From Nanobdellota archaeon (GTDB taxonomy: Archaea > Nanobdellota > Nanobdellia > Pacearchaeales > GW2011-AR1): a stretch of DNA of 56,327 nt. The stretch covers positions 1 to 56,327 of the forward strand of contig JAHJSH010000001.1 of assembly GCA_018830525.1 (NCBI GenBank). Direction: 5' to 3'. This document shows, piece after piece, positions 14,160-51,666 of the stretch. Under the pieces are notes generated by a model, which saw only the letters and a program-made list of their open reading frames with translations, was not told the DNA's origin and did not search any database. A program made the position numbers and the translations under genes. Within the stretch, counting starts at the first letter, position 1, and each line of letters begins with the position of its first letter.

Positions 14160-14357
14160 TCAAGAAATCTCAATACAAACATCAGCACACATTGTATAAC
14201 AAAGCCCACAACCAGTACAGTCCTTTTCAGAATCTCTAACCGGATAAAAATAACCCTTATTATTTGTCTTCGAGGACATCGATAAATAATCTACGGGACA
14301 AGCATCAACGCACAGCCCACAACCTTTACATCTCTCAATATCAATTTCTAAACTCAT
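14160..14357 (-). CDS. 2x[4Fe-4S] ferredoxin
   Basis: CKGCGLCVDACP and CTGCGLCYTMCADVC. Confidence 0.8.
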   Translation of the reverse strand: MSLEIDIERCKGCGLCVDACPVDYLSMSSKTNNKGYFYPVRDSEKDCTGCGLCYTMCADVCIEIS

Positions 14358-35440: not shown

Positions 35441-38131
35441 CTACCTTCTTATAAGTCTTCTTTGAAACCCAGATTTATTAATGTTTCCACTAATTTGTTG
35501 TTGAGATGAAGTAGCAAATTTCTTTCTAGCTGCACGATTCCTCATATAAGCCACAATTTTATCAAAAGGAATAATCTCAATCATCCCAGTTCTTTGACCA
35601 CGAGATTTCCTAAATACATAAATAAGTCTTTCCAAAGACCACCCTTGCTTACTCAATTCCCTTCGAATCTCTCCATCCTCCTTTCCTCTCGCCCGAGCAT
35701 TTGCAATATACATCAAAAGATTATATAGTTGTCGTCGATCACCAAACAAATGACTCTCATAATTCCTTTTATACCAAATTTGAAGAAGAGTGTAAAAAAT
35801 AAATATGAAAACTACTATTAAAATAATATAAAAGATAACTTTACTCGCAGGTTGTTTACAATCACTAGGACAGGTTGAAGAATCTTCTCCGAAATCCTTT
35901 TCACAAACTAAATTAAAATTACAAGTCTCATCAATATTCGCCTCAATAACAAGCTTACCCAATTTCGGAGACACAAAAAAAGGAGTTTCCCCAGCATTCT
36001 TATAATAAAACTCAAAAATCTTGTTCTCCCCCCCATCAAAAACAATCACTGTGTCATCATCTCCAGCCTTCCTTGCACCAGGATCCTTAGTTTTTTCAAA
36101 AAACAATTCTAAGAAAGGTCGCTTAATAATCAAATAACTTTCATCGTCGCTATAAGAGGTAATATTATAAAGATAGGTCCGGAATATGGCCTCAGTACTT
36201 CCATCCAACCAAGCGACCGAAATTTTCTTCGTTGAAACATCAGATCGAACCGTCTGTGTCTGCCATCTTAAAATCGGATCTATATATTCATCCAAATCAG
36301 GATAACTTGATCCTCCCGCGAAATCCAAAATAATTTGGGGATCAATATCTCCCATCCCAGTCAAAGTTTCAAATCCCATCTCCTCTATAACAAAAACATT
36401 AGTCGGAATATTCAAAGAAAATAAATCGGCGGCAATTTCTAAAAGATCTGAATCATCAAAAGAAAGATTATAAGCCCTCTCCAATCGAGTCAACTCCCCC
36501 TCATAATATGAATAATTAATAATCTCTCCCAATTCAGAACGATACCATTCGGGAAAACTACTCAACTTCGATTTAACTCCATCTAAAGATCCTCTTAGAT
36601 TAACAAGAGTTACACTCACCGCCTCGGCCGGGCTAATAGCCTCGACAACAAAACCTTTCTTAGAAGTCAAATTCCCTCCAGCACTTACTTCAATAATAAC
36701 AGAATAATTTTTTATCTGAGCAAAAGTATGAACGATAAAGTTTTCGGGAGTAGTCTGTGCACTACTATTTTCAAATTTCCAAGTATAAGTTAGAGAAGCA
36801 TTCGGAACATCGAAATCAACACCAACATAAAACGTAACAGGAACTCCGGCAGGAGGATTCTTTGGAGAAAGAGAAGTAATAATCGGAGCAGGAATTTGTT
36901 CAACCTCTTCTTCAAAAAGAGTTTCTCCACCTAAAAAAAGACTATAATCTCCAGAACCCAAAATGTTAAATCCGGTTAAACCTAAATCAAGAACTCCTTC
37001 AAAATCAACAGAGGAAGGTATAATGTCTAAGTCCGAAATCTCATTTGATTGATAAAACTCTCCATCCACAGTATAATCCAAACCTATGTTAGAAATTCTA
37101 ACGGATTGTGGAATCCCAGAAAATTCTATCGGTAAAACACAAGTGTCAGAACAATCTCGTTCGTATCTCCTAACCAAAAGGTCATCAGCAGCGCTCACCA
37201 AAGCCGCAAAATCTAAATCAGATGAACTGAAAGACGCCGCACCAGAATATAACGAAGTTCTCGCAGAAATAGAATAATCCTTTACACTGCTCTCCGGACC
37301 GTTACTAAAAACAAAACCACACGGAGTTCCAGAGGTCTCGGTATAGATTTTATAATTTGTAGCAATAGAAGCCTTAACGCAAACCTGATAATTTCCTTCC
37401 TCAAAAACTTCCCCTAGATTAGCATCAATCCGACATCCTTCAAAATCATTAGGATTAAACTTACATGTCCCAAGATAACCTCCTCCATTCTCGGGGTAAA
37501 GAGTCATAGTCAAATTTTTAGTATCTCCGAGGAGAACCTCGGCCCCAACATAAACCGCACCAGTCTCAGTTATTCCAATCATCTCACAATAACTCGAAGT
37601 TCCAATAAGCGGTCCAGTTTCCCCAAGGCTCGGATTATAACATCCCCAATCCCTCGATGAAAAATTATCAGAAAACTCATTAAACCCCCATTTCTCCCCC
37701 TCAAAAAAATTCAAAGACAAAGGCCTCTTAAGACTCTGCCCAAAATTACTCACAATATTAAAACTAAGCCCTGTCAAGATAACATTTTCTCCATTTAAAA
37801 CAAATCCCCCATAACTCTTGGCTGCCATCACACTGAAGTTCTTATCGCTCGAGCTAGAAAGGACAGTATAACCATTAGAACAATCCGGCGGAGAACAATC
37901 AAAATCAGCCCCGTTATCTACCAAAAATTTCCCAAGATCTATAGAATCATTTTCACTCGAAGTCAACTCCGAATTGTACTCTTCCCCCAAGATGGAAAGA
38001 TTAATCCATCCAGAAATCATCTCAAACGGAAAGTAAGCATCCTTAAAACTATAATTATAAACCTCAACAGATGCCGAAGCCATCGCAGTCATGAGACACA
38101 CTAATAACAAAATCACCCCAAATCTTTTCAT
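35441..38131 (-). CDS. Large secreted/membrane-anchored surface protein (signal peptide, PKD-like domain, C-terminal TM plus basic cytoplasmic tail)
   Basis: MKRFGVILLLVCLMTAMASA; VPVTFYVGVDFDVPNASLTYTWKF...; TM VIFYIILIVVFIFIFYTLL. ATG 38131 is 21 nt from TATA 38153..38160; the ORF-track TTG start is 38146. Confidence 0.6.
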   Translation of the reverse strand: MKRFGVILLLVCLMTAMASASVEVYNYSFKDAYFPFEMISGWINLSILGEEYNSELTSSENDSIDLGKFLVDNGADFDCSPPDCSNGYTVLSSSSDKNFSVMAAKSYGGFVLNGENVILTGLSFNIVSNFGQSLKRPLSLNFFEGEKWGFNEFSDNFSSRDWGCYNPSLGETGPLIGTSSYCEMIGITETGAVYVGAEVLLGDTKNLTMTLYPENGGGYLGTCKFNPNDFEGCRIDANLGEVFEEGNYQVCVKASIATNYKIYTETSGTPCGFVFSNGPESSVKDYSISARTSLYSGAASFSSSDLDFAALVSAADDLLVRRYERDCSDTCVLPIEFSGIPQSVRISNIGLDYTVDGEFYQSNEISDLDIIPSSVDFEGVLDLGLTGFNILGSGDYSLFLGGETLFEEEVEQIPAPIITSLSPKNPPAGVPVTFYVGVDFDVPNASLTYTWKFENSSAQTTPENFIVHTFAQIKNYSVIIEVSAGGNLTSKKGFVVEAISPAEAVSVTLVNLRGSLDGVKSKLSSFPEWYRSELGEIINYSYYEGELTRLERAYNLSFDDSDLLEIAADLFSLNIPTNVFVIEEMGFETLTGMGDIDPQIILDFAGGSSYPDLDEYIDPILRWQTQTVRSDVSTKKISVAWLDGSTEAIFRTYLYNITSYSDDESYLIIKRPFLELFFEKTKDPGARKAGDDDTVIVFDGGENKIFEFYYKNAGETPFFVSPKLGKLVIEANIDETCNFNLVCEKDFGEDSSTCPSDCKQPASKVIFYIILIVVFIFIFYTLLQIWYKRNYESHLFGDRRQLYNLLMYIANARARGKEDGEIRRELSKQGWSLERLIYVFRKSRGQRTGMIEIIPFDKIVAYMRNRAARKKFATSSQQQISGNINKSGFQRRLIRR

Positions 38132-38152
38132 AGAATACCTTAGCAAATAGAG

Positions 38153-38565: not shown

Positions 38566-38672
38566 GAAATAACAAGGAATAAAGATATTATAAATGTTAT
38601 TATTCCCTCTTGAACAGCAGATTAAAACCTAAGTATAATAATCCTTAAATAGTATCTTTAACATAAAAAAAT

Positions 38673-38846
38673 ATGGCAGAAGATTTAATCTCTCTTGCAG
38701 GTGGTATCGGCCTTTCTGGCGGAAATGTTTCTGGAAGATCTTATATTCCCCTGGGCATAAATGGTGACTGCGCTGATGGCAATGACAATTGTGATTGCTT
38801 CCAAGGCGATTGCTACTGTACCGACTGTAATGAAGGTTCTGATTGA
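38673..38846 (+). CDS. 57-aa Cys/Asp-rich peptide, candidate RiPP precursor (not in the ORF track)
   Basis: ATG 38673, TGA 38844..38846; MAEDLISLAGGIGLSGGNVSGRSYIPLGINGDCADGNDNCDCFQGDCYCTDCNEGSD. CTTAAATA box 21 nt upstream; the radical SAM gene starts 25 nt downstream. Confidence 0.6.
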   Translation: MAEDLISLAGGIGLSGGNVSGRSYIPLGINGDCADGNDNCDCFQGDCYCTDCNEGSD

Positions 38847-38871
38847 GTAGATTTCTAATCCCTCAAAGAAA

Positions 38872-39927
38872 ATGGTAAACAAATTTAGCGTAGCTTGGTT
38901 ATCCCTAACATATAAATGTAATAATCAATGCGGCTGGTGCTATGCCTCTTCTAATTCTCCCCAAGAAAATAAAGAACTTCCAAGAGATAAAATATCTCCA
39001 ATTCTTCACCTCCTTAAAGACCTGAAAATAAAAAGAACAATCCTAATCGGGGGAGAACCTACAGTTTATCCCTACCTAAAAGAAGTTTTAGAAGAACACC
39101 AGATCCAAGATATAAACACTGGGATGGTAACTAATGGCAGGAAATTAGCTAAAAGAGAATTTTCTAAAATATTAAAAGACCATGGGGTCAATTCATTAAC
39201 AGTTTCAATTGAAGGATATGATCCTTCAAGCCACGATGAGGTTACTCAAGTTTCGGGTAGTTACGAAGAGTCAATTAATGGAATTTATACTGCGGCGAAT
39301 GAAGGAATAAAAGTTTCCACAAACACTGTAATTACCCGGAGGAATTATTCCAATTTAGAAAAAATCTCGAAATCCCTCATGGATTTACCAATTGAACATT
39401 TAGGTTTTAACATCTGCGGCCCATGTTTTGGAAGTACAGATAACAGCAGTATTATAAATCCCAAACTAGCAGCAAGGGCCTTCCAAGATACCTATGATTA
39501 TATAAAATTAAATTCAAATAAAAGAATAAAATTAGTGACTCCTATGCCCTTATGTTTCTTTAATGAAGAACATCGAGAAGAATTTAAAAATCAAAGAATC
39601 ATCCGGGGAGGACCTTGTCAACTAGCTAGTGGGTCAAATTTTGTAATCGATTATAATGGAGATATTATTCCGTGTACACATCTTACAGGTTATCCATTAT
39701 TTAATATTTACAAAGAAAATGGAGAGTTATATTCTAGGGATAAATTTTTAGAAAGTGTAAATAATCCTGATGGAATTCCTTATCGATTTAGAGAAATTAT
39801 GAGTAAAAATGCTTCAGAAAAATGCGATGATGGAAACTGTGATGAGCCTTGCTCTGGAGGATGTCCTCTTGTTTGGAGTGTATTCGATCCAGCCAAAGAA
39901 ATAAAAGGTATTGATGCTTCAATATAA
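38872..39927 (+). CDS. Radical SAM enzyme with a C-terminal SPASM-type auxiliary cluster domain
   Basis: LTYKCNNQCGWCYA (CX3CX2C), GGEPT, PCQLASGSNFVIDYNGDIIPCTHL, CDDGNCDEPCSGGCP. Confidence 0.85.
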   Translation: MVNKFSVAWLSLTYKCNNQCGWCYASSNSPQENKELPRDKISPILHLLKDLKIKRTILIGGEPTVYPYLKEVLEEHQIQDINTGMVTNGRKLAKREFSKILKDHGVNSLTVSIEGYDPSSHDEVTQVSGSYEESINGIYTAANEGIKVSTNTVITRRNYSNLEKISKSLMDLPIEHLGFNICGPCFGSTDNSSIINPKLAARAFQDTYDYIKLNSNKRIKLVTPMPLCFFNEEHREEFKNQRIIRGGPCQLASGSNFVIDYNGDIIPCTHLTGYPLFNIYKENGELYSRDKFLESVNNPDGIPYRFREIMSKNASEKCDDGNCDEPCSGGCPLVWSVFDPAKEIKGIDASI

Positions 39928-39928
39928 T

Positions 39929-40597
39929 ATGGCTAAAGTAACCTTCATTTCAGATATCGAAAAAGACATGGAAAATATTTGGAATAAATGTAATAAAAAA
40001 CCTAAATTTGGAAATTTCAAAATAAATCCCAGTTTAGAAAAAATATGTATTGGAAAGAAATTCGAAGAGGCGAAACCAGAATTAGAAAAATATCTAAAAG
40101 CAACGTATGACTCTCCCTATATCGAGACCTTCCGAAAAGTAATGCAAGAATTATGGGATAAAATTGAAGTACAATTTTTTGATAGGATGAACTCTTTAAT
40201 GAAAAAAGAATACAAAAAAGAAATCAAATCTTACATCACGACATTAAACATTTGCCCATACAATCCGCTAGAGCCTTCATTCATAGTTTCTTTATTTTAT
40301 CCCCTTCAAAGGGCTATTTTAACTTGCGGGCATGAAATCATGCATCTTTACTTCCACGAATTTTATTGGAATGAGGTAGAAAAGAGGATTGGTCCTAAGA
40401 AAACTGGAGATTTAAAAGAAGCACTAACAATTTTATTGAATCTAGAATTTATTGATCTTTGGTTAACACGAGATGGGGGTTATAACGAACATAAAGAACT
40501 CAGAGAATTTATTTCAAAAACTTGGAAAGAAGAAAAAGACATTGAAAAGTTGTTAGAAAAATGTATTATCTTTTTAAATAATTCTACAGAATCTTAA
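39929..40597 (+). CDS. HExxH-motif protein (putative metallopeptidase), third gene of the radical SAM cassette
   Basis: CGHEIMHLYFHEF. ATG 39929 is 2 nt after the radical SAM stop; the ORF track starts at TTG 39911. Confidence 0.45.
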   Translation: MAKVTFISDIEKDMENIWNKCNKKPKFGNFKINPSLEKICIGKKFEEAKPELEKYLKATYDSPYIETFRKVMQELWDKIEVQFFDRMNSLMKKEYKKEIKSYITTLNICPYNPLEPSFIVSLFYPLQRAILTCGHEIMHLYFHEFYWNEVEKRIGPKKTGDLKEALTILLNLEFIDLWLTRDGGYNEHKELREFISKTWKEEKDIEKLLEKCIIFLNNSTES

Positions 40598-40613
40598 ATA
40601 TCAATCAACCTTA

Positions 40614-42212
40614 TTATTCCCTCTTAAAGAAATAAACTAACCCAATAATCCCCAGCGAAGACATTAATGCGAACAAACTAAATCCGGGCAACTTAACAAT
40701 GGGCTCACCACAATCTCTTTGGATTCCTATAAGATCAGTAGTACATCCTGCCGCCAATAAGACTGCCGCATATTTTGTTTCATCAGTCAAAAAGTCTCCA
40801 GTAGGATTAACTCCTCCAGCAGTCCAATTAACATGCTGTTTACCATCTATACAATCTCCAGAACTAAAGTCCTTCTGACATCTGAATGTACTCGGATTAT
40901 CTCCATAAATATCCGGCATAACATCATATCCTAACATACAATAATTTCCTTCGGTTAAGGTATCATGGGTCCAATCACACTTACAAGAATCTTGAGGAAT
41001 GACATACCCTTGATTATCTACAACGAAATAAGTTCCACAAACCGCAGTCCCCATTCCTGCTGAACCGACATTCCAAACATCTAACTGGCACGAAGCATTA
41101 GACCGATAAATACTACAACTATAATCTGAAGGATTACCCACACAACCAACCGTATCATCTACCCAGAAACATCCAGCCGCATCACAAAGACCCTGCTCAA
41201 GAATAGTTCCACACTCAACAGTTCTCAAGTTACACACTGGAAGTTCTCCCTCCTCATCATCAGGATCATCCTTACATAAATATCCAGAAGGGCAACATTG
41301 AGGATTCCCATTTACATAAGTTGAAGCCCCAAACGAACATCCCGTACCATCATAAAAAGTTTCATATAATTCTAAACTCACTTCCTCACAATAGTACATT
41401 CCGTTACGCGAGCAAGACCCCGCACTAATACTGCCTCCCCCTGCTGACTCCGGCAACTGACATCCCGCCAAGGTAAACTCCGTCTTTGTCGTCGAGACAT
41501 CTCCCGAACCCCCTAAATAACAATAATCTCTTCCACCACCAGAAGTCTGCCAATGGAATTTCACATCCGCCGCACTAAACGCACGACTATAAAGCGCAAC
41601 CTCATCAATCAAACCAACAAAATCCTCACCAATCTCCAAAGGCAATGTGGAAGTATCCGGATTATCTAATATAGTACTATTTTCCAATATATTATTAATA
41701 TAAAGGCTCAAATTCTGCGCAGCCGGAAGCCATGTTAGGACGACGTGATAACCTACCTCGGCATTCAACGAAGACAAGGCAGAAGAGATAGTAACCGGAC
41801 CATTAGTTCCAACAGTTGCTTCAATATGTCCTGTAAAACCCCCATCATCATCAACCCACCTAATCTGATAATTTCCTTTATTCAACAAATAAGCATTAGG
41901 AGAACTGGCACTTCTAAACCAAAACTCAATTGCAAATCCTCCACCACCTGCAAGTGATAAAGCATTATCAGAATCATCAATCTCAATCATCTGAGTTCCA
42001 TCAAAACCTGCGGCCTTCCCAACAAAAACATCTGACGCAGTAACACTTGGATAACTACTCGGATCCCCATGATGAGTTCCAAAACTATCCATAGCATTTC
42101 CTTCCATCTGCCAATACGCGACCATACTTGCATCACAATCATCAATAGCAGAAATAGCACTAGCAAAACCAGCTAAGAGCAAAACACCAAGAGCAAATAT
42201 CGTCCACCTCAT
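40614..42212 (-). CDS. Secreted LamG/concanavalin-like plus Cys-rich surface protein with a PGF-CTERM-like sorting tail
   Basis: Signal peptide MRWTIFALGVLLLAGFASAISA; LamG-like FAIEFWFR...LSLYIN...GLIDEVALYSRAFSAADV; C-terminus KLPGFSLFALMSSLGIIGLVYFFKRE. ATG 42212 is 21 nt from TTTATAAA 42234..42241. Confidence 0.6.
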   Translation of the reverse strand: MRWTIFALGVLLLAGFASAISAIDDCDASMVAYWQMEGNAMDSFGTHHGDPSSYPSVTASDVFVGKAAGFDGTQMIEIDDSDNALSLAGGGGFAIEFWFRSASSPNAYLLNKGNYQIRWVDDDGGFTGHIEATVGTNGPVTISSALSSLNAEVGYHVVLTWLPAAQNLSLYINNILENSTILDNPDTSTLPLEIGEDFVGLIDEVALYSRAFSAADVKFHWQTSGGGRDYCYLGGSGDVSTTKTEFTLAGCQLPESAGGGSISAGSCSRNGMYYCEEVSLELYETFYDGTGCSFGASTYVNGNPQCCPSGYLCKDDPDDEEGELPVCNLRTVECGTILEQGLCDAAGCFWVDDTVGCVGNPSDYSCSIYRSNASCQLDVWNVGSAGMGTAVCGTYFVVDNQGYVIPQDSCKCDWTHDTLTEGNYCMLGYDVMPDIYGDNPSTFRCQKDFSSGDCIDGKQHVNWTAGGVNPTGDFLTDETKYAAVLLAAGCTTDLIGIQRDCGEPIVKLPGFSLFALMSSLGIIGLVYFFKRE

Positions 42213-42321
42213 AGACATAATAGAAATAAGAAGTTTATAAAGATTTTGAAGCTAATTTTTAATCATTTACTACCACAAAATTCTAAGATAGATTTTTATA
42301 GGAATAAGACTATAAGTAGAT

Positions 42322-43179
42322 ATGGGAGATGATAAAAAGATAATTGTATTTAATGATAAGAAAATAAGGAAGGTTTGGAATGATGATGACTGGTGGTTTT
42401 CTGTCGTGGATATTGTTGGAGTTTTGACTGAAAGTGTAAATTCCCGAGATTATTGGTATAGATTAAAGGTTAGGGAAGAAGAATCTTCAGGGGTTGAACT
42501 GTCGACATTTTGTCGACAGTTGAAATTAGAAGCTGAAGATGGTAAACTTCGGGAGACAGACTGTGCAGATAAAAAAGGAATTTTTCGTATTATCCAATCG
42601 ATTCCTTCCAAGAAGGCAGAGCCGTTTAAATTATGGTTAGCGAAAGTTGGTTCAGATAGAATTGATGAAATAGAAAATCCTGAATTGGCTCAGGAGCGGA
42701 TGAAGAAACTTTATGAATTAAAAGGGTATTCTAAGGATTGGGTTGATAAGAGAATTCGTGGAATCGCAGTTAGACAAAATTTAACTGAGGAGTGGAAGGA
42801 CAGAGATGTTGATGAAAATATTGAATATGCTATTTTAACTAATGAGATAAGTAAGGCAACTTTTGGAAAGACAATTCAGGAATATAAGGAACTGAAAAAT
42901 TTAGATAAGGAAAATCTTCGGGACCATATGGATGATTGGGAATTAATCTTAACTATGATCGGGGAGAAAGCGACTACAGAGATAACTCAAAAAGAAGATT
43001 CATTGGGTTTTGGAGAATGTAAGGATTCTGCAGTCAAGGGTGGAGAAATAGCCGGAAAGACGCGAATGGAATTGGAAAAGTCATTAGGGAAACGATTAGT
43101 TTCAGATGAAAATTATTTGAAAAAAGAAGAGAGAAAAACCAAAAAGAAAAAACGTATACTTCATGCAATAAATAAATAA
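42322..43179 (+). CDS. Bro-N domain / DinD-like protein, paralog 1
   Basis: IRKVWNDDDWWFSVVDIVGVLTES (Bro-N-like), ENPELAQERMKKLYELKGYSKDW, KENLRDHMDDWELI. Roughly two-thirds identical, by eye, to the ORF at 44948..45820. Confidence 0.55.
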   Translation: MGDDKKIIVFNDKKIRKVWNDDDWWFSVVDIVGVLTESVNSRDYWYRLKVREEESSGVELSTFCRQLKLEAEDGKLRETDCADKKGIFRIIQSIPSKKAEPFKLWLAKVGSDRIDEIENPELAQERMKKLYELKGYSKDWVDKRIRGIAVRQNLTEEWKDRDVDENIEYAILTNEISKATFGKTIQEYKELKNLDKENLRDHMDDWELILTMIGEKATTEITQKEDSLGFGECKDSAVKGGEIAGKTRMELEKSLGKRLVSDENYLKKEERKTKKKKRILHAINK

Positions 43180-47163: not shown

Positions 47164-47919
47164 CTATTTACCCTTTGTAAAAATATACTGCAAACTTGCC
47201 TTTGAATAAATCTTTCTCAACCGATTTAACTCTCTCAAACTACAATCTTTTATTCCAATTTCCACACTTCTCTGACAAAATCTCAAAATCTCAAAATCAG
47301 AAAAATCTTCTCGCCCATAAACTTCTTTTTCAAACTGAATAAGCAAAAAAGGTTTGTAATCAAGTGATTTATAGAACTCAATCGAACTATCCAATGCCCC
47401 AACATTAATCTTGTCATACTTTTCAAACCCAATTTCCTCGAACTTTCCCATTAACATTTCCCCAAACTTTCTTCGCTGAAATCTACAATCCACAGCAATC
47501 TCGCTTATTAACAAATAGCCATCTCGAGGAAATCCGCAAATAACTCCAATAAGCTCATTATCCAAATAAATACCAATAAAAAACTCTGGAAATTCTTTAA
47601 ACTTCTCTTTCAAAAATTCAGAATCCCTAACCCTTTTAGCACCCAACTCTTCATCCAAAATTTTCATAGCTAAATAGAAATCCCTAAAAGGAATATTCCT
47701 AATCTCTAGACTTGTCAAAAAACCGACCTTCTTGAATTCCAAAAAAATTGCCTTCTCCACCTCATTCAATTCGTTCTCATTCACCCCACAAGAAAGCTTC
47801 TTCAGAAAAGGCTTATGTTCAAGAGCAAGTTTCAAATCAATTGACCTTTTACAATCCCGAACAAAAAAAGCCTTTCTATCCTTTCTCCACTTAACTTGTT
47901 TCTTCAAAGTTTCTATCAT
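47164..47919 (-). CDS. GNAT acetyltransferase domain fused to an uncharacterised roughly 100-aa N-terminal domain (possible peptide-binding/RRE-like)
   Basis: IGVICGFPRDGYLLISEIAVDCRFQRRKFGEMLM (GNAT motif A); ATGA overlap with the radical SAM gene. Confidence 0.6.
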   Translation of the reverse strand: MIETLKKQVKWRKDRKAFFVRDCKRSIDLKLALEHKPFLKKLSCGVNENELNEVEKAIFLEFKKVGFLTSLEIRNIPFRDFYLAMKILDEELGAKRVRDSEFLKEKFKEFPEFFIGIYLDNELIGVICGFPRDGYLLISEIAVDCRFQRRKFGEMLMGKFEEIGFEKYDKINVGALDSSIEFYKSLDYKPFLLIQFEKEVYGREDFSDFEILRFCQRSVEIGIKDCSLRELNRLRKIYSKASLQYIFTKGK

Positions 47920-49022
47920 TTTATATTAAGGTCGAACTCATTCTTTAATTTATCCCCATACTCTTTTAGTCTATCAAGTCCCAAAGCCCGTCCATTCCTT
48001 ATACAAAAAGGAGTTGGAGATTTTCCATCTCCAAAATATCTAAAACTTTGAGCCACACATTTATTACATTTTGACAACATCTTACAGCCGTCGCAACCTA
48101 CATTCATATACCCTCTAAATTTTTCAAAAACCTTGCCATCCCAAATTTCCTGAAGAGATTTATCTCGAATATTTTCAAATTTCATAAATTTTTCAGGAAT
48201 AATTACTCTCGATAAAGTACATGGAGAAACGGTTCCATCAGAATGAATCTCACAAAAATTAATCGCCGCCGCACAACTATAGGCAGATAATCCCTTTTGC
48301 CCCATCTCAACAGGCATATCGATTATCCTAATATTTATTTTGTTTTTTTTACCTTCATCACTAACGGATTCCCAAAAAGCATTATCATAATATTCATAAA
48401 ATTCTGAAATAAATTTATTAGCTTTTCCCCTCCCAATCGGAATAATTGGAGAAATAAACCAATCAATAGGGTTTATTTCTTTTATTAATTTTTGAAACTC
48501 TTCCATTTTCCGAATATTTTCCTTATGCAAGACAGTAGCAATAGAAATGGAAATATTCATTTTCTTAAAATAATAGATATTATTCATAGTAATATCAAAC
48601 ATAGTAGGATTATATTTCCTTTGGGAATCCAGTCTTATAAATCCATGAGATTCTCTGTCTGGACCATCCAAACTAATTTTTACACTAATTAAATATTCCT
48701 TATTGTCAACGATAAAATCCCGCATATCATCAGAAAATACTCCATTTGTAGTCAAAATAAAATACATTCCTTTCTTAGTAAGATAATCTATTAATTCCTT
48801 AAAGATTGGACTTTGAGTAACCTCTCCCCCCGAAAGTACCACATAAAAAACATTACACCTAATTAAATCATCAATAACCTCTTTCCATTCATCAATATTC
48901 AGTTCATCATCCCCCCTCCCCGAATAATCTCCAAAACAATGTTTACATCTAAGATTACATTTACTTGTTAGGTTTATGTAACAAGAATAGGGAGAAACAT
49001 AAACTTCGTTAGTGATATCCAT
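47916..49022 (-). CDS. Radical SAM enzyme with a SPASM domain
   Basis: LTSKCNLRCKHCFG (CX3CX2C), SGGEVT, CAAAINFCEIHSDGTVSPCTL, CDGCKMLSKCNKCVAQS. Confidence 0.85.
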   Translation of the reverse strand: MDITNEVYVSPYSCYINLTSKCNLRCKHCFGDYSGRGDDELNIDEWKEVIDDLIRCNVFYVVLSGGEVTQSPIFKELIDYLTKKGMYFILTTNGVFSDDMRDFIVDNKEYLISVKISLDGPDRESHGFIRLDSQRKYNPTMFDITMNNIYYFKKMNISISIATVLHKENIRKMEEFQKLIKEINPIDWFISPIIPIGRGKANKFISEFYEYYDNAFWESVSDEGKKNKINIRIIDMPVEMGQKGLSAYSCAAAINFCEIHSDGTVSPCTLSRVIIPEKFMKFENIRDKSLQEIWDGKVFEKFRGYMNVGCDGCKMLSKCNKCVAQSFRYFGDGKSPTPFCIRNGRALGLDRLKEYGDKLKNEFDLNIK

Positions 49023-49042
49023 TTTAGATTAATAAATTACAA

Positions 49043-49219
49043 CTAGTATTGATTCTGTCCACAAGGCATAATATCATTCTTTGTCAAGTAAACAAGTCCA
49101 CCGGACTCATTTCCAAAACCTGCTTCTCCACGGAGATAATCCTCGAAGATTCTTTGAGAAACCCCAATTGTCCCTGGAGAAATAGTGCTATAACCTATGT
49201 TCTTAGTCCTATCAACCAT
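49043..49219 (-). CDS. 58-aa peptide, candidate RiPP precursor for the adjacent radical SAM/SPASM enzyme
   Basis: MVDRTKNIGYSTISPGTIGVSQRIFEDYLRGEAGFGNESGGLVYLTKNDIMPCGQNQY. ATG 49219 is exactly 21 nt from TTTATAAA (49241..49248); the stop is 20 nt before the radical SAM ATG. The ORF-track version uses an upstream TTG. Confidence 0.5.
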   Translation of the reverse strand: MVDRTKNIGYSTISPGTIGVSQRIFEDYLRGEAGFGNESGGLVYLTKNDIMPCGQNQY

Positions 49220-49290: not shown

Positions 49291-51666
49291 CTAAGGCATG
49301 AACTCTACATCCAACTCAGCCCAATTCCTTCCTGCCTGTATGAAATTCTTGAAGAACTTATAAGACTTTGGCTCAGTCCCAACATGGTTAAAGTTAATCA
49401 ACCCGTCGCTGAATCTCCAAGAGAAATACAATCCAGTAACACCAACCGGAGTACAACCCACATTAGCAACACATATCAATCCACTCGAAGTGCTCGCATC
49501 AAACTCAACATTACTCCACGGAATATTCGATAAATCCTCGGGCTTAGTAATACATGCCGCAGCATAATTCGCCGTAATTGTCGGATCAACAACCATAACA
49601 TTCGCACGCTTCTTCAAAGAACCCCCCCGCAGGTCCTCTACATAAACAATAATCTGATAGTTCCCGGGTACAGAATACAAGTGGAGATATCGATTCGTCT
49701 CACTAGCAAGAGTCGTAGAATTAGTCCCATCCCCGAAATCAACATAGCCTCGAACCAGTCCGTCGTTGTGACCCACCGAAACATTAAACCCGAAACTATC
49801 TGTTATATTAAAGAAATTCCCACACCCAATATCCGTAACATCAATATCTGGAAAATGTGGGTCACAATCAAATTCGAAATCCAAATTCAATAGCTGTGTT
49901 TTTGTTTGGGGGAGCACCGTAACAAAATTATAACCATCATCATATTTCAAAAACACATCAGTAGAAAAATCAAAAGTAATCCTTCCAGTATCCTCACATT
50001 CATCAGCAAAAGGAAGTTCAGAGAAAGGAACATGTGAAAGGACCTCTGTCGTATTCATCAGACCATTAATAGTTACTTGTCGCATTTCCCCCTCCTCAAT
50101 CCTTACCGGACAATTAGCACAACTACCACTAAAATTAAGAGAATTCGCGATTCCAGCATCCGTAATATTCACCGCCCCAATCCCAGTATTAGTAACATCA
50201 TAATCCGCAGTAAAAGAAATCCCATCCTGAACTAACCCAGACCTTACAAAACTAATATCCGGGCTAACAACCTTAATATCATAATCTTCTAAAGGAACCC
50301 AGCCATCTCTCCTTTGCCAAGGATTACTGCCACCCATACTACCAAGACTACACAAGGTAGATCTATCCTGATTACTCTCTGTCAAATCTGGACAAATATA
50401 ATCGGGAGAATCACAAATCGCATTAACCATATCCATCTTAACATTATTACTTCCCGGAACAACAAAGTCTCCCAACTTAAGCCAGTCAGCCTGACTTGCA
50501 GTTAACGCAAGATTACAACCCGCAGGCAAATACCCAACATCACTCACTCCAGGACCATCCCCCACATAAGAATCCCGATCCACAGTCGTACCAATATCAC
50601 AACTAGGCATACTATCATAATTAGCATTTATACCACCAGCCGAACCCCATGCAACAAATCCCTGACGAATCCCATAAGGAACTCCATTACTACATTGAAC
50701 ACTAATTGCGTTAATTCCAGTAATCCTCACCTCAGTTCCGGGAGCGACGACATAACCTCCTAAGGGATTAGATTTTAATTCTCCGGGCGCAATCGCCGTA
50801 GGACTATTATAATAGACAGTAGTAATCGCACCCGCAGCATCTACCTGTGCAGCCCCTGCATGACTGCAGGGGGTATTAGTACTACAAGAAGGTTCAACGA
50901 CAAAAGCTGGAGAGATCTCCACATTATAGAAATCTCCATCAATAGTATATTTAGCTCTCAAGGAATAAGTTCCAGTTCCAACATCCACATTCGCACCACA
51001 CCGAGTCTTTCCAGGTAAATCCCATCCCGTAACTCCATTTTCAACAGTACATTCATCACCTAGAATAGCATTATTCGGAGTAAGTTTAGTAGCTCCCAAA
51101 TAAAATTCAATATCTATATTTTTATAATCCGGATCATCCCGGTCTCCACAATTCATAATTGTCTCTATAGGAATAGAAGAAAGCGGACATGAACTAGTAA
51201 CCGGCGCTACAAAGCCAATTGGACTACTACCAGGACTAACAGAACTACAACACTCATCAAAAATACAATCTCCACTACAATCCTTATCCCTCCTACAGTA
51301 CTCCCCCTCATCGCCATCTATATCTCCCGTATTATAGGTTAAGGTAAAGTTATCGATATCACCAGTAAAAGTTATCTGATTATCTCCCCGCCAATACCAA
51401 CTAGGCCAACTAAATGCCCAACTGTCCCTAAAATCTCCTACAGATAAAGAACTCGTTGAATTACAAAATCCCTGGTCGTTACCATTTAAACTTACTCGAC
51501 ATCCAAGACTTGCATTCTCAATCACAATTGAATTACTATTAACATTCTCACTCTCCTCAACATCAAAATTTGTATTCCCAGTTCCGAAAACAGTGTAAGT
51601 CGCAGCAACAACCGCCGGAGCTAACAACAAAACTGCAAGAACCACAACAATTATTTTTTTATCCAT
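49291..51666 (-). CDS. Large secreted Cys-rich surface protein with a PKD-like domain
   Basis: Signal peptide MDKKIIVVVLAVLLLAPAVVAA; GYVDFGDGTNSTT...YSVPGNYQIIVYVEDLRG (PKD-like); 8-nt overlap with the upstream gene. Confidence 0.6.
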   Translation of the reverse strand: MDKKIIVVVLAVLLLAPAVVAATYTVFGTGNTNFDVEESENVNSNSIVIENASLGCRVSLNGNDQGFCNSTSSLSVGDFRDSWAFSWPSWYWRGDNQITFTGDIDNFTLTYNTGDIDGDEGEYCRRDKDCSGDCIFDECCSSVSPGSSPIGFVAPVTSSCPLSSIPIETIMNCGDRDDPDYKNIDIEFYLGATKLTPNNAILGDECTVENGVTGWDLPGKTRCGANVDVGTGTYSLRAKYTIDGDFYNVEISPAFVVEPSCSTNTPCSHAGAAQVDAAGAITTVYYNSPTAIAPGELKSNPLGGYVVAPGTEVRITGINAISVQCSNGVPYGIRQGFVAWGSAGGINANYDSMPSCDIGTTVDRDSYVGDGPGVSDVGYLPAGCNLALTASQADWLKLGDFVVPGSNNVKMDMVNAICDSPDYICPDLTESNQDRSTLCSLGSMGGSNPWQRRDGWVPLEDYDIKVVSPDISFVRSGLVQDGISFTADYDVTNTGIGAVNITDAGIANSLNFSGSCANCPVRIEEGEMRQVTINGLMNTTEVLSHVPFSELPFADECEDTGRITFDFSTDVFLKYDDGYNFVTVLPQTKTQLLNLDFEFDCDPHFPDIDVTDIGCGNFFNITDSFGFNVSVGHNDGLVRGYVDFGDGTNSTTLASETNRYLHLYSVPGNYQIIVYVEDLRGGSLKKRANVMVVDPTITANYAAACITKPEDLSNIPWSNVEFDASTSSGLICVANVGCTPVGVTGLYFSWRFSDGLINFNHVGTEPKSYKFFKNFIQAGRNWAELDVEFMP

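What the first reader, a model, noticed from the sequence alone, without database searches (positions are those of the whole stretch)
38644..40597. Unannotated 57-aa peptide with six Cys and six Asp, upstream of a radical SAM/SPASM enzyme and an HExxH protein: candidate archaeal ranthipeptide/SCIFF-like RiPP locus
A + strand ORF below the 60-aa cutoff of the supplied track (ATG 38673, TGA 38844..38846) encodes MAEDLISLAGGIGLSGGNVSGRSYIPLGINGDCADGNDNCDCFQGDCYCTDCNEGSD. The N-half is Gly-rich and leader-like. The 25-residue C-terminal core has exactly six Cys interleaved with six Asp and three Asn. An A/T box (CTTAAATA, 38644..38651) sits 21 nt upstream of the ATG, the spacing seen at many genes in this window. 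A 351-aa CX3CX2C radical SAM protein with a SPASM-type C-terminus starts 25 nt downstream. A 222-aa HExxH protein starts 2 nt after that gene's stop. Small Cys-rich precursor, rSAM/SPASM maturase and putative peptidase is the layout of thioether RiPPs such as sactipeptides and ranthipeptides (SCIFF, and freyrasin with its Cys-Asp links). Those are known essentially from bacteria. Here the host carries archaeal informational genes and looks like a reduced DPANN-type genome. The track shows only an antisense 65-aa ORF at this position, so automated annotation would probably miss the peptide.
Basis: partly seen in the sequence, partly recalled or inferred. Interest (0 to 1): 0.82.

Follow-up and report, generated by a model that had tools for sequence, protein, structure and literature searches.

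The report
Mobile Cys/Asp-rich peptide cassette in archaea
A real, conserved but unannotated 57-residue peptide gene sits with a radical-SAM enzyme and a previously undescribed zinc-protease-like protein in a 2-kb three-gene cassette found in many tiny (DPANN) archaea; it most likely makes a cross-linked peptide natural product of a kind not yet characterised in archaea.

Summary
The 57-aa ORF (38673..38846) is a real gene. Related peptides lie directly upstream of the orthologous radical SAM gene in more than 20 other DPANN contigs, and a profile finds 32 peptide clusters. Five Cys and one Asp (D46) are invariant, D41 and D51 nearly so. Third codon positions vary while the amino acids stay fixed. 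A TATA-like box sits at the window's modal 21-nt spacing.

The enzyme is a radical SAM protein with a SPASM-like C-terminal domain, nine conserved extra Cys and no N-terminal leader-recognition (RRE) domain. The HExxH protein belongs to a family with no Pfam or NCBIfam model and looks like a gluzincin. It follows the enzyme in 23 of 28 cassette-type loci.

Across the family, 70% of core Cys are preceded by Asp, and Cys and Asp occur about 1:1 (median 7 each). This fits Cys-Asp thioether chemistry of the ranthipeptide type, but that is untested. The locus fails the sequence tests for SCIFF, PapB and sactipeptide families.

New findings: locus-specific 15-35-nt direct repeats bracket the 2-kb cassette in 5 of 20 loci, which suggests mobility. 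Distant bacterial relatives encode similar Asp/Cys-rich peptides. The window also holds a second radical SAM peptide cassette.

The parts
38597..38611 (.). Left copy of a 15-nt exact direct repeat, TTATTATTCCCTCTT (25 nt at 84% identity, 38590-38614), that brackets the cassette
   Evidence: There are only two copies in the 56-kb window. None of 300 random pairs of 200-nt segments shares a repeat this long.
38644..38651 (+). TATA-like box CTTAAATA, 21 nt upstream of the peptide ATG. This is an archaeal promoter for a leaderless transcript.
   Evidence: The spacing equals the window's modal spacing (10 of 41 long ORFs). The same box and spacing precede the peptide ORF in most of the 22 other loci inspected, and in the 83%-identical relative L062.
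38673..38846 (+). Precursor peptide gene, 57 aa. It has a conserved N-terminal leader (L5, L14, G16), a variable linker, and a C-terminal Asp/Cys-rich core, NDNCDCFQGDCYCTDCNEGSD.
   Evidence: Invariant residues in 33 sequences are L14, G16, C40, C42, D46, C47, C49 and C52. In the 10-codon core, 9 of 10 third positions vary against 3 of 20 first and second positions.
38872..39927 (+). Radical SAM enzyme with a SPASM-like C-terminal domain, 351 aa, without an N-terminal RRE domain. This is the presumed maturase.
   Evidence: PF04055 scores 80 bits. CX3CX2C is at C16/20/23. Nine further conserved Cys are at 182, 185, 228, 249, 268, 318, 323, 327 and 331. The predicted fold is closest to SuiB, anSME, BlsE, CteB and SkfB.
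39929..40597 (+). HExxH protein, 222 aa, from an uncurated family. It is a presumed gluzincin-type metallopeptidase and candidate leader peptidase.
   Evidence: H135, E136, H139 and E164 are invariant. The AF2 model has pLDDT 95. No Pfam, NCBIfam or PDB sequence match was found. The weak fold hits are nearly all zincins. The gene lies directly downstream of the radical SAM gene in 23 of 28 cassette-type loci.
40611..40625 (.). Right copy of the 15-nt direct repeat. It overlaps the stop codon and last four codons of the convergent LamG surface-protein gene (40614..42218, minus strand).

Best explanation
The region is a self-contained three-gene cassette of about 2 kb for a ribosomally made, post-translationally modified peptide (RiPP). 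A leaderless transcript starts about 21-25 nt downstream of the TATA-like box and encodes the 57-aa precursor.

The conserved N-terminal segment of the precursor (MxxxLxxxAxxIxLxGG) serves as the recognition leader. The C-terminal part of about 20 residues is the core. The core is built from Asp-Cys units, with consensus DDCDC-x(2-7)-DC[YVI]C[TMI]DCNE.

The radical SAM enzyme binds SAM at its CX3CX2C cluster and carries auxiliary Fe-S cluster(s) on nine further conserved Cys. It abstracts hydrogen atoms from core residues and joins Cys sulfur to carbon, forming several intramolecular thioether rings. The most likely acceptor is the beta-carbon of Asp, as in PapB and freyrasin. The window core offers C42-x3-D46 and C47-x3-D51.

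The HExxH protein, a zincin with Glu164 as the likely third zinc ligand, then removes the leader.

Shown here: the gene is real; peptide, enzyme and HExxH protein are conserved and linked; the enzyme class and the lack of an RRE; the Asp-Cys signature. Inferred: thioether chemistry, Asp as acceptor, peptidase activity and its substrate, and the biological role. No transporter or immunity gene is part of the cassette, so the product's site of action is unknown. The confidence of 0.6 is for the whole statement: about 0.9 that this is a RiPP cassette, and roughly even odds for the specific Cys-Asp thioether chemistry.
For: 1. Real gene. Nine homologous small proteins were found, several on contigs of the same length as radical SAM homologues. 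A profile search of 1.84 billion representatives finds 32 clusters, all 53-79 aa. The core is under purifying selection in the + frame, and the antisense frames are closed in other loci. The promoter box and its spacing are conserved.

2. Linkage. A Cys/Asp-rich ORF lies directly upstream of the radical SAM gene in about 20 of the 27 closest genome loci (L001-L019, L021, L026) and in L062-L064 and L071. The HExxH gene lies directly downstream in 23 of 28 loci (27 genome loci plus the window), and no other flanking gene family recurs in four or more loci. In L063 the downstream HExxH gene is missing, but a divergent homologue (hhalign probability 92%, E 5e-7) sits upstream of the peptide.

3. 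Enzyme class. Pfam Radical_SAM scores 2e-22. Full-length alignments exist to the WgkB, StsB and PapB peptide-maturase models. The best PDB sequence hit is the sactipeptide maturase SkfB, and SuiB is covered end to end. The AF2 model (pLDDT 88) matches SuiB (TM 0.69-0.74), anSME (0.70) and CteB (0.64).

4. Chemistry hint. Of 262 core Cys in 38 family peptides, 184 are preceded by Asp. The medians are 7 Cys and 7 Asp per core. At least one C-x3-D/E motif occurs in 37 of 38 peptides. PapB links Cys sulfur to Asp C-beta in CX3D motifs and tolerates CXnD with n = 0-6 (PMC9413430).

5. Zincin. H135, E136, H139 and E164 are invariant. The model shows a small sheet of three short strands followed by the HExxH helix and the Glu-bearing helix. 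The top weak fold hits are M61, M1, thermolysin-like, IrrE, SprT and minigluzincin peptidases.
Against: No chemistry has been measured. The enzyme falls below the cut-off of every curated family. Its N-terminal half scores equally with heme and cofactor enzymes (NirJ, AhbD, MoaA). The window protein's SPASM hit (17.7 bits) is below Pfam's gathering score of 21.5. The spacing of the C-terminal Cys (CX4CX3CX3C, with no trailing Cys) departs from the textbook SPASM motif as I recall it.

No RRE is present anywhere in the cassette. The dominant motif is Asp immediately before Cys. That is not the Cys-then-Asp order of freyrasin, and it would also suit metal binding.

Fold matches for the HExxH protein are not significant (best E 0.19). 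More divergent members of the HExxH family stand alone among housekeeping genes with no radical SAM neighbour.

One abundant lineage carries the peptide and the HExxH gene next to a radical SAM gene with a premature TAA stop and loss of the invariant Cys249. The cassette has no exporter.
Confidence: 0.6

Rival explanations
1. The modification is thioether formation but of the sactipeptide type (Cys sulfur to an alpha-carbon), or uses acceptors other than Asp. In this reading the abundant Asp serves solubility, charge or metal binding rather than cross-linking.
For: The best PDB sequence hit is SkfB, a sactionine-forming enzyme. The StsB sactipeptide maturase model aligns over the full length. 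Asp mostly precedes Cys, unlike the Cys-x3-Asp order of freyrasin.
Against: The near 1:1 Cys:Asp ratio, the invariant D46 and the nearly invariant D41 and D51 point to Asp having a specific role. There is no bipartite arrangement of Cys-rich N-terminal half and acceptor-rich C-terminal half. That arrangement is typical of sactipeptides as I recall them.
Confidence: 0.2
2. The peptide is not a secreted natural product. It is an intracellular metal- or Fe-S-binding peptide, or the precursor of a peptide-derived cofactor as in PQQ or mycofactocin. In those systems a radical SAM/SPASM enzyme and a peptidase also accompany a small peptide.
For: No transporter or immunity gene is conserved with the cassette. 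Asp-Cys and CxC repeats are good metal ligands. Peptide plus radical SAM/SPASM enzyme plus peptidase is also the PQQ and mycofactocin layout (PMC10114670 and established knowledge). The cassette persists in very small genomes.
Against: Core length and Cys number vary widely (6-9 in most members; 3 in the truncated L011) and whole units are gained or lost. That is typical of structural or bioactive RiPPs and not of a single cofactor-forming residue pair. The cassette appears to be mobile and patchily distributed, with one pseudogenised copy, so it is not a core metabolic function.
Confidence: 0.2
3. The HExxH protein is not the leader peptidase. It could be a general DPANN zincin recruited for another role, such as immunity, regulation in the manner of ImmA/IrrE, or a leader-binding partner that substitutes for the missing RRE.
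For: Stand-alone family members lie next to tRNA synthetase, GTPase and ribosomal protein genes. IrrE/PprI and SprT/Wss1 are among the weak fold hits. The enzyme lacks an RRE.
Against: The catalytic triad H, E, H plus E164 is invariant even in cassette-linked members. Gene order is tight, with 1 nt between the genes, in 23 loci. When the gene is lost downstream, a paralogue appears upstream.
Confidence: 0.25
4. The small ORF is a chance ORF, and the radical SAM gene encodes a housekeeping enzyme such as a sulfatase maturase or a cofactor enzyme.
For: The ORF is below usual gene-calling length. An antisense ORF of similar size overlaps it. A sulfatase-domain gene is present in the window (285..2108). 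anSME is among the best fold matches.
Against: The peptide is conserved in more than 30 clusters with synonymous-site variation only in the core. The antisense frames are closed elsewhere. It has its own conserved promoter. The sulfatase gene lies 37 kb away and is not linked in other loci.
Confidence: 0.02

Closest known systems
Ranthipeptides of the freyrasin type (PapA precursor, PapB maturase; NCBIfam NF047865)
   Same: Both have a small precursor with equal numbers of Cys and Asp in the core, C-x3-D motifs, and a radical SAM/SPASM-type maturase encoded next to it. Multiple small rings are expected. PapB tolerates Cys-Asp spacings of 0-6 residues, which would cover the spacings seen here (PMC9413430).
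   Different: The enzyme scores 54 bits against a 340-bit cut-off. It has no N-terminal RRE, whereas PapB has one at residues 1-86 (PMC12715619). The dominant unit here is Asp-Cys (Asp at position -1 of 70% of Cys), not Cys-x3-Asp. The host is archaeal, and a new zincin family accompanies the enzyme. The chemistry is untested.
SCIFF (six Cys in forty-five residues; TIGR03973 peptide, TIGR03974 maturase, CteB structure)
   Same: Both have a short Cys-rich precursor next to a radical SAM/SPASM thioether synthase, in a compact locus without a transporter.
   Different: The peptide has no NCBIfam hit. CteB matches only the N-terminal half by sequence (3e-7). By established knowledge SCIFF cores are Gly/Cys/Ser/Thr-rich rather than Asp-rich, SCIFF maturases carry an RRE, and SCIFF loci have no HExxH gene.
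Streptide maturase SuiB and anaerobic sulfatase-maturing enzyme (anSME)
   Same: These are the best overall structural matches to the predicted enzyme (TM 0.69-0.74). Like anSME, the enzyme here has the radical SAM barrel starting at the N-terminus with no RRE.
   Different: Sequence identity is only 17-20%. By established knowledge SuiB makes a Lys-Trp C-C bond and anSME oxidises one Cys or Ser of a sulfatase. Neither acts on Asp/Cys-repeat peptides.
Uncharacterised bacterial radical SAM plus Asp/Cys-rich peptide pairs (Clostridia, Bacilli, Gammaproteobacteria, Patescibacteria; loci L035, L039, L040, L044-L050, L059)
   Same: The enzymes are 25-30% identical over their full length. The adjacent small ORFs have very similar cores, for example FDCDCGPDDCRDCYNCDCGSDDCRDCYDCHCGSDDC in L046 and LACDCDGDCGQGDCDCPSDCDDY in L050.
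   Different: In bacteria the peptide is downstream of the enzyme, the leaders are unrelated (for example LLxxYKGTxIxAPIAxGV), and there is no HExxH gene. None of these enzymes or peptides is in NCBIfam either.

Membership tests
Radical SAM superfamily (PF04055) | CX3CX2C cluster motif and a Pfam score above the gathering threshold | tested here: met
   C16, C20 and C23 are invariant in 27 homologues. PF04055 scores 80.4 bits against a cut-off of 29.5. The GGE motif at residues 60-62 is invariant.
SPASM subfamily (PF13186) | Pfam SPASM domain above the gathering threshold | tested here: not met
   The window protein scores 17.7 bits against a cut-off of 21.5. Several family members (for example P0040, P0049, P0054) do carry a precomputed PF13186 hit.
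SPASM subfamily (PF13186) | C-terminal Cys set able to bind two auxiliary Fe-S clusters, with a SPASM-like fold | tested here: met
   Nine conserved extra Cys are present. They include C249-x13-G263-x4-C268 and C318-x4-C323-x3-C327-x3-C331. The model superposes on SuiB, anSME and CteB over its full length. The spacing differs from the canonical CX2CX5CX3C motif (recalled from established knowledge), and there is no trailing Cys.
SCIFF system (TIGR03973 / TIGR03974) | The precursor matches the SCIFF peptide model and the maturase matches the SCIFF maturase model | tested here: not met
   The peptide has 0 NCBIfam hits at E <= 1. No maturase family reaches its cut-off.
PapB-type ranthipeptide maturase (NF047865) | Model score above the cut-off | tested here: not met
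   54 bits against a cut-off of 340, although the alignment is full-length (residues 9-334).
PapB-type ranthipeptide maturase (NF047865) | N-terminal RRE domain (PapB residues 1-86, PMC12715619) | tested here: not met
   The radical SAM motif starts at residue 16. The first strand of the model is residues 7-11, and there is no N-terminal domain. The cassette has no room for a separate RRE gene, because the intergenic gaps are 25 nt and 1 nt.
Ranthipeptides (chemical class) | Cys and Asp/Glu in the core at cross-linkable spacing (CXnD/E) | tested here: met
   The window core has two C-x3-D motifs. At least one occurs in 37 of 38 family peptides. The median is 7 Cys and 7 Asp per core.
Ranthipeptides (chemical class) | Thioether from Cys sulfur to a non-alpha carbon | not testable with these tools
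   This requires MS/MS and NMR of the modified peptide.
Sactipeptide maturases (StsB NF045574, SkfB) | Model score above the cut-off | tested here: not met
   StsB scores 63.6 bits against a cut-off of 625. SkfB matches only residues 10-172.
RiPP precursor (general) | Small ORF adjacent to the modifying enzyme, with a conserved leader and a more variable core | tested here: met
   Leader residues L5, L14 and G16 are conserved. The linker is hypervariable. The core is built of a variable number of Asp-Cys units.
Zincin / gluzincin metallopeptidases (clan MA) | HExxH plus a downstream Glu ligand on the next helix | tested here: met
   H135, E136, H139 and E164 are invariant in 33 sequences. They lie on consecutive helices, residues 126-145 and 147-166.
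Zincin / gluzincin metallopeptidases (clan MA) | Significant sequence or fold match to a known peptidase family | tested here: inconclusive
   No Pfam or NCBIfam hit. No PDB sequence hit. The best Foldseek E-value is 0.19, yet the hit list is dominated by zincins. The L063 paralogue has a weak Peptidase_MA_2 hit, E 0.028.
Double-glycine leader / PCAT export systems | C39 peptidase-ABC transporter encoded in the cluster | tested here: not met
   Only the radical SAM and HExxH genes recur in four or more of the 28 loci. G17 of the 'GG' is not conserved.

The most novel reading that the evidence does not exclude
The trio is a mobile 2-kb gene cassette that spreads among DPANN archaea and leaves long (15-35 nt, up to 51 nt imperfect) locus-specific target duplications, without encoding its own recombinase. 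It would produce a new class of Asp-Cys-repeat peptide. The chemistry could be adjacent or short-range Cys-Asp thioethers, or a metal-binding cage. The maturase recognises its substrate without an RRE, and a new zincin family processes the product. This would be the first archaeal radical-SAM RiPP class, with distant counterparts in Clostridia, Gammaproteobacteria and Patescibacteria, and it might act on the host cells these episymbionts depend on.
Probability: 0.3. Interest if true: 0.85.

Novelty: new variant of a known kind. Interest (0 to 1): 0.68.

Why it matters
No radical-SAM-modified peptide from archaea appears to have been characterised. Surveys only list antiSMASH-predicted clusters (PMC12144867). 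This cassette offers a compact target of three genes and 2 kb that can be tested directly. It comes with a natural series of more than 30 core variants, an RRE-less maturase that may be useful as a leader-tolerant cross-linking catalyst (compare the engineering interest in PapB, PMC9413430 and PMC12715619), and a zincin family without any annotation. DPANN archaea have minimal genomes and depend on hosts. A conserved and apparently mobile peptide-making module in them is therefore a candidate mediator of symbiont-host or symbiont-competitor interaction. The case also shows that gene callers miss or leave unnamed the key gene.

Tried and rejected
- Pfam and NCBIfam scans of the peptide and the HExxH protein gave no family.
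- A profile of the HExxH family against PDB sequences gave only noise.
- A fold search of the high-confidence HExxH model gave no significant match.
- NCBIfam scans of the distant bacterial enzymes and their peptides named no family.
- An all-against-all comparison of flanking ORFs in 28 loci (27 genome loci plus the window) looked for a transporter, immunity gene, RRE or recombinase and found none recurring.
- Viral contig scans with the radical SAM and HExxH profiles found no relatives.
- Five literature searches for this family (radical SAM/RiPP with DPANN, Nanoarchaeota, Pacearchaeota, Patescibacteria, Cys/Asp-rich) found no description.
- The sigma-70 promoter and intrinsic terminator scan was uninformative for an archaeon and at background level.
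- GC content across the cassette (0.30-0.37) is not distinct from its surroundings.
- I looked for conserved termini or inverted repeats just inside the flanking direct repeats and saw none.
- I considered that the in-frame stop in the L005/L071 radical SAM gene might be selenocysteine. It is TAA, next to a Cys-to-Tyr change, so it is read as a pseudogene.
- I considered that the family spans Patescibacteria (labels of L013, L018, P0074). Those loci carry the same archaeal TATA box at the same spacing as the Woesearchaeota loci, so the labels may reflect binning. This is unresolved.
Full report
**1. Observation**

The + strand ORF runs from ATG 38673 to TGA 38844-38846. It encodes MAEDLISLAGGIGLSGGNVSGRSYIPLGINGDCADGNDNCDCFQGDCYCTDCNEGSD. 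Cys are at residues 33, 40, 42, 47, 49 and 52, and the last 25 residues hold 6 Cys, 6 Asp and 3 Asn.

Among 182 ORFs of 40-100 aa in the window, only this one and a 2x[4Fe-4S] ferredoxin reach six Cys within 26 residues.

CTTAAATA lies at 38644-38651, 21 nt before the ATG. A TATA-like octamer ends exactly 21 nt before the start of 10 of 41 long ORFs in the window. Of 36 motif hits in the 100 nt upstream of those ORFs, 16 end 17-25 nt before the start, against a background density of 0.0018 per nt. The peptide ORF therefore has the window's standard promoter geometry for leaderless archaeal transcripts.

The radical SAM gene (38872..39927, 351 aa) follows after 25 nt. The HExxH gene starts at 39929, one nucleotide after the TAA stop. 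Homologue N-termini support this ATG rather than the TTG at 39911.

The window is archaeal. It encodes FttA/aCPSF1 and the archaeal CCA-adding enzyme. The closest homologues of the cassette proteins come from Pacearchaeota, Woesearchaeota and Nanoarchaeota MAGs.

**2. The small ORF is a gene**

A word-indexed search found nine related small proteins of 53-72 aa. Several lie on contigs whose lengths match those of radical SAM homologues. A profile of these, run against 1.84 billion cluster representatives, found 32 proteins with E <= 0.001, all 53-79 aa.

In the 33-sequence alignment, L14, G16, C40, C42, D46, C47, C49 and C52 are invariant. L5, D41 and D51 are nearly invariant. The first Cys (C33) is not conserved.

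In eight distinct DNA versions of the ten-codon block DC[YV]CTDCNE[GC], 9 of 10 third positions vary. Only 3 of 20 first and second positions vary. That is purifying selection on the + frame.

The antisense 65-aa ORF seen in the track is open only in this window and one other locus. In 12 of 13 homologous loci all three antisense frames have stop codons.

The promoter box and its 21-nt spacing are conserved in the 83%-identical relative L062. They also precede the peptide ORF in most of the 22 other loci inspected.

**3. The trio is a unit**

A scan of one genome per species returned 61 loci encoding relatives of the enzyme. For the 27 closest loci (33-70% identity) I ran tblastn and an all-against-all comparison of flanking ORFs, adding the window as a 28th locus.
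- The HExxH gene lies directly downstream of the enzyme gene in 23 of the 28 loci.
- No other flanking gene family recurs in four or more loci.
- A Cys/Asp-rich ORF with the shared leader lies directly upstream of the enzyme gene in L001-L019, L021 and L026.
- There is no transporter, immunity gene, RRE protein or recombinase.

In L063/L064 (enzyme 68% identical) the downstream HExxH gene is missing. A 206-aa HEIIH protein sits upstream of the peptide instead. It is a divergent homologue (hhalign probability 92%, E 5e-7) and has a weak Peptidase_MA_2 hit.

Seen from the HExxH side, the link is not absolute. More divergent members (P0215, P0235, P0236, P0238, P0239; 38-46% identity) stand alone among housekeeping genes.

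**4. The enzyme**

- Pfam Radical_SAM scores 80 bits. SPASM scores 17.7 bits, just below the 21.5-bit threshold, although several homologues carry a SPASM hit.
- No NCBIfam model comes near its cut-off. The N-terminal half scores alike with NirJ, AhbD, MoaA and HxsC. The full-length alignments are to peptide maturase models: WgkB, StsB and PapB.
- Twenty-seven homologues share the invariant C16/C20/C23 motif and the GGE motif. Nine further Cys are conserved, at 182, 185, 228, 249, 268, 318, 323, 327 and 331. Six of these are invariant; C182, C185 and C323 are at least 90% conserved. They include C249-x13-G-x4-C268 and C318-x4-C-x3-C-x3-C331. That is enough ligands for two auxiliary clusters.
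- The profile's best PDB sequence hit is the sactipeptide maturase SkfB. SuiB is covered from residue 15 to 338.
- The AF2 model (pLDDT 87.7) matches BlsE, SuiB (TM 0.69-0.74), anSME (0.70), CteB (0.64) and SkfB.
- The barrel begins at residue 7, so there is no N-terminal RRE. PapB has one at residues 1-86 (PMC12715619).

The enzyme is therefore a peptide-type radical SAM enzyme with a SPASM-like domain, belonging to an uncurated clade.

**5. The HExxH protein**

There are 115 clusters of homologues, all unnamed and without Pfam domains. H135, E136, H139 and E164 are invariant. H143 and H188 are nearly invariant.

The AF2 model is confident (pLDDT 95.1). It has a small sheet of three short strands followed by the HExxH helix (residues 126-145) and the helix that carries E164 (residues 147-166).

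Foldseek against the PDB gives no significant match (best E 0.19). Nearly all of the top weak hits are zincins: M61, M1 aminopeptidases, aureolysin, IrrE/PprI, SprT/Wss1, minigluzincins and the lanthipeptide peptidase EryP.

I read it as a new gluzincin-like family. Leader removal is the most economical role, but that is an inference.

**6. The core signature and the likely chemistry**

I tabulated 38 archaeal family peptides.
- 184 of 262 core Cys (70%) are immediately preceded by Asp.
- The medians are 7 Cys and 7 Asp per core.
- 37 of 38 peptides have at least one C-x3-D/E motif.

The window core has C42-FQG-D46 and C47-YCT-D51. The second spacing is fixed across the family. The first varies from 2 to 7 residues.

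PapB makes six links from Cys sulfur to Asp C-beta in CX3D motifs. It accepts spacings of 0-6 residues, in-line or nested (PMC9413430). Equal numbers of Cys and Asp, an invariant Asp (D46) and two nearly invariant ones (D41, D51), and a SPASM-type enzyme make Cys-Asp thioethers the leading hypothesis.

The Asp-before-Cys order is not the freyrasin pattern, and it would also suit metal binding. I therefore put the specific chemistry at roughly even odds, and the RiPP-cassette reading at about 0.9.

**7. Wider family**

More distant relatives of the enzyme (25-30% identity) occur in Clostridia, Bacilli, Gammaproteobacteria and Patescibacteria. They have small ORFs directly downstream with strikingly similar cores, for example L046 FDCDCGPDDCRDCYNCDCGSDDCRDCYDCHCGSDDCVSY, L050 LACDCDGDCGQGDCDCPSDCDDY and L039 CDCEGDCDGDCVD. 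Their leaders are unrelated and there is no HExxH gene. None of these enzymes or peptides is in NCBIfam.

Other archaeal relatives (L028, L029, L036, L052) pair with different peptides, carrying SCLSLG repeats or SESCLGLCVE.

The Asp/Cys-repeat peptide class thus seems broader than the archaeal clade. The archaeal clade is distinguished by gene order and by the zincin.

Contigs labelled Patescibacteria (L013) or 'bacterium' (L018) carry the same archaeal TATA box at the same spacing as the Woesearchaeota loci. Those labels may be binning errors.

**8. Evidence of mobility (unexplained)**

In the window, the exact 15-mer TTATTATTCCCTCTT occurs only twice in 56 kb, at 38597 and 40611. These positions bracket the cassette. 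The right copy overlaps the stop codon and last four codons of the convergent LamG gene.

Locus-specific exact repeats bracket the cassette in the same way in four other loci:
- L001: 22 nt exact, 51 nt imperfect.
- L008: 19 nt.
- L018: 17 nt.
- L026: 35 nt.

The start-to-start distance is 2014-2088 nt. No random pair of segments from the same loci reaches these lengths.

At least one copy of the repeat overlaps or abuts the 3' end of a neighbouring gene in the window, L001, L018 and L026. I saw no conserved termini or inverted repeats inside them.

This looks like insertion with target duplication of promoter plus three genes as one unit. The mechanism is unknown, and no recombinase is encoded inside the unit. 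No relatives were found on viral contigs.

**9. Comparison with known systems and novelty**

The cassette works like a thioether RiPP system, with ranthipeptides or sactipeptides as the nearest models. It is not a member of the SCIFF, PapB, StsB or any other curated family by sequence. It differs in lacking an RRE, in the Asp-Cys unit, in the associated zincin and in its host.

An antiSMASH survey reports ranthipeptide- and sactipeptide-type clusters in archaea including DPANN, without characterising any (PMC12144867). I found no paper describing this family.

I rate it a new variant of a known kind, with moderately high interest. The chemistry, the role of the zincin and the mobility are all directly testable.

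**10. Other observations**

The window contains a second, unrelated radical SAM cassette on the minus strand. It has a 58-aa peptide (49043..49219, C-terminus MPCGQNQY) whose TATA box ends 21 nt before its ATG, a radical SAM/SPASM enzyme (47916..49022) and a GNAT protein (47164..47919). The arrangement is conserved in related metagenome contigs, with the peptide C-terminus [MV]M[PS]CGQNQ[YF] retained.

One abundant Woesearchaeota-type lineage (L005/L071) has the main cassette with a premature TAA stop and a Cys249-to-Tyr change in the enzyme, while the peptide and zincin genes remain intact.

Noticed in passing
window 47164..49219 (minus strand): A second radical SAM peptide cassette. It has a 58-aa ORF at 49043..49219 (MVDRTKNIGYSTISPGTIGVSQRIF...NDIMPCGQNQY) with TTTATAAA ending 21 nt before its ATG. 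Next come a radical SAM/SPASM gene at 47916..49022 (SPASM 8e-11) and a GNAT acetyltransferase at 47164..47919 that overlaps the enzyme's stop codon. The peptide (conserved C-terminus [MV]M[PS]CGQNQ[YF]) and the enzyme recur together in L077, L079 and L080; the GNAT gene recurs in L077, L079 and L081.
   Followed up: partly
window 38597-38611 and 40611-40625; L001 4652/6740; L008 4685/6709; L018 4672/6696; L026 4685/6759: Locus-specific exact direct repeats of 15-35 nt bracket the ~2-kb cassette in 5 of 20 loci, usually overlapping or abutting the 3' end of a neighbouring gene. They look like target-site duplications. No recombinase and no conserved termini are found inside.
   Followed up: partly
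L005 4735-4740; L071 2700-2705: In an abundant lineage (its HExxH protein P0135 is indexed in 117 blocks of the collection), the cassette's radical SAM gene has Cys249 changed to Tyr and the next codon changed to a TAA stop. The peptide and HExxH genes are intact. This is an apparent maturase pseudogene.
   Followed up: yes
L065-L070, L073-L076: Divergent members of the HExxH family (38-46% identity) stand alone next to housekeeping genes (LeuRS, HIT, GTPases, ribosomal proteins) with no radical SAM gene nearby. The family is therefore wider than the cassette.
   Followed up: partly
L035, L039, L040, L041, L044-L050, L059: Bacterial relatives of the enzyme (25-30% identity) are each followed by a small ORF with an Asp/Cys-repeat core and an unrelated leader. 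They form an apparently undescribed two-gene RiPP family in Clostridia, Bacilli, Gammaproteobacteria and Patescibacteria.
   Followed up: partly
L013, L018 (peptide promoters at about 4290 and 4785): Contigs labelled Patescibacteria or 'bacterium' carry the cassette with the same archaeal TATA box and spacing as the Woesearchaeota loci. This suggests mis-binning rather than a bacterial host. L018 also encodes a protein with a Por_Secre_tail domain.
   Followed up: partly
window 14160..14357 (minus strand): A 65-aa 2x[4Fe-4S] ferredoxin, which could be an electron donor for the two radical SAM enzymes in the window.
   Followed up: no
window 35441..38146, 40614..42218, 49291..51666 (all minus strand); 42322..43179 (+): The cassette lies among large secreted or anchored Cys-rich surface proteins (LamG and PKD domains) and next to a BRO-N domain gene. 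This neighbourhood looks variable and possibly prone to horizontal transfer.
   Followed up: no
L004 and L006, upstream of the peptide ATG: Two loci have a Shine-Dalgarno-like GGAGG 6-9 nt before the peptide start instead of the leaderless TATA spacing. The L004 core is also atypical, being Pro-rich with no C-x3-D motif.
   Followed up: no
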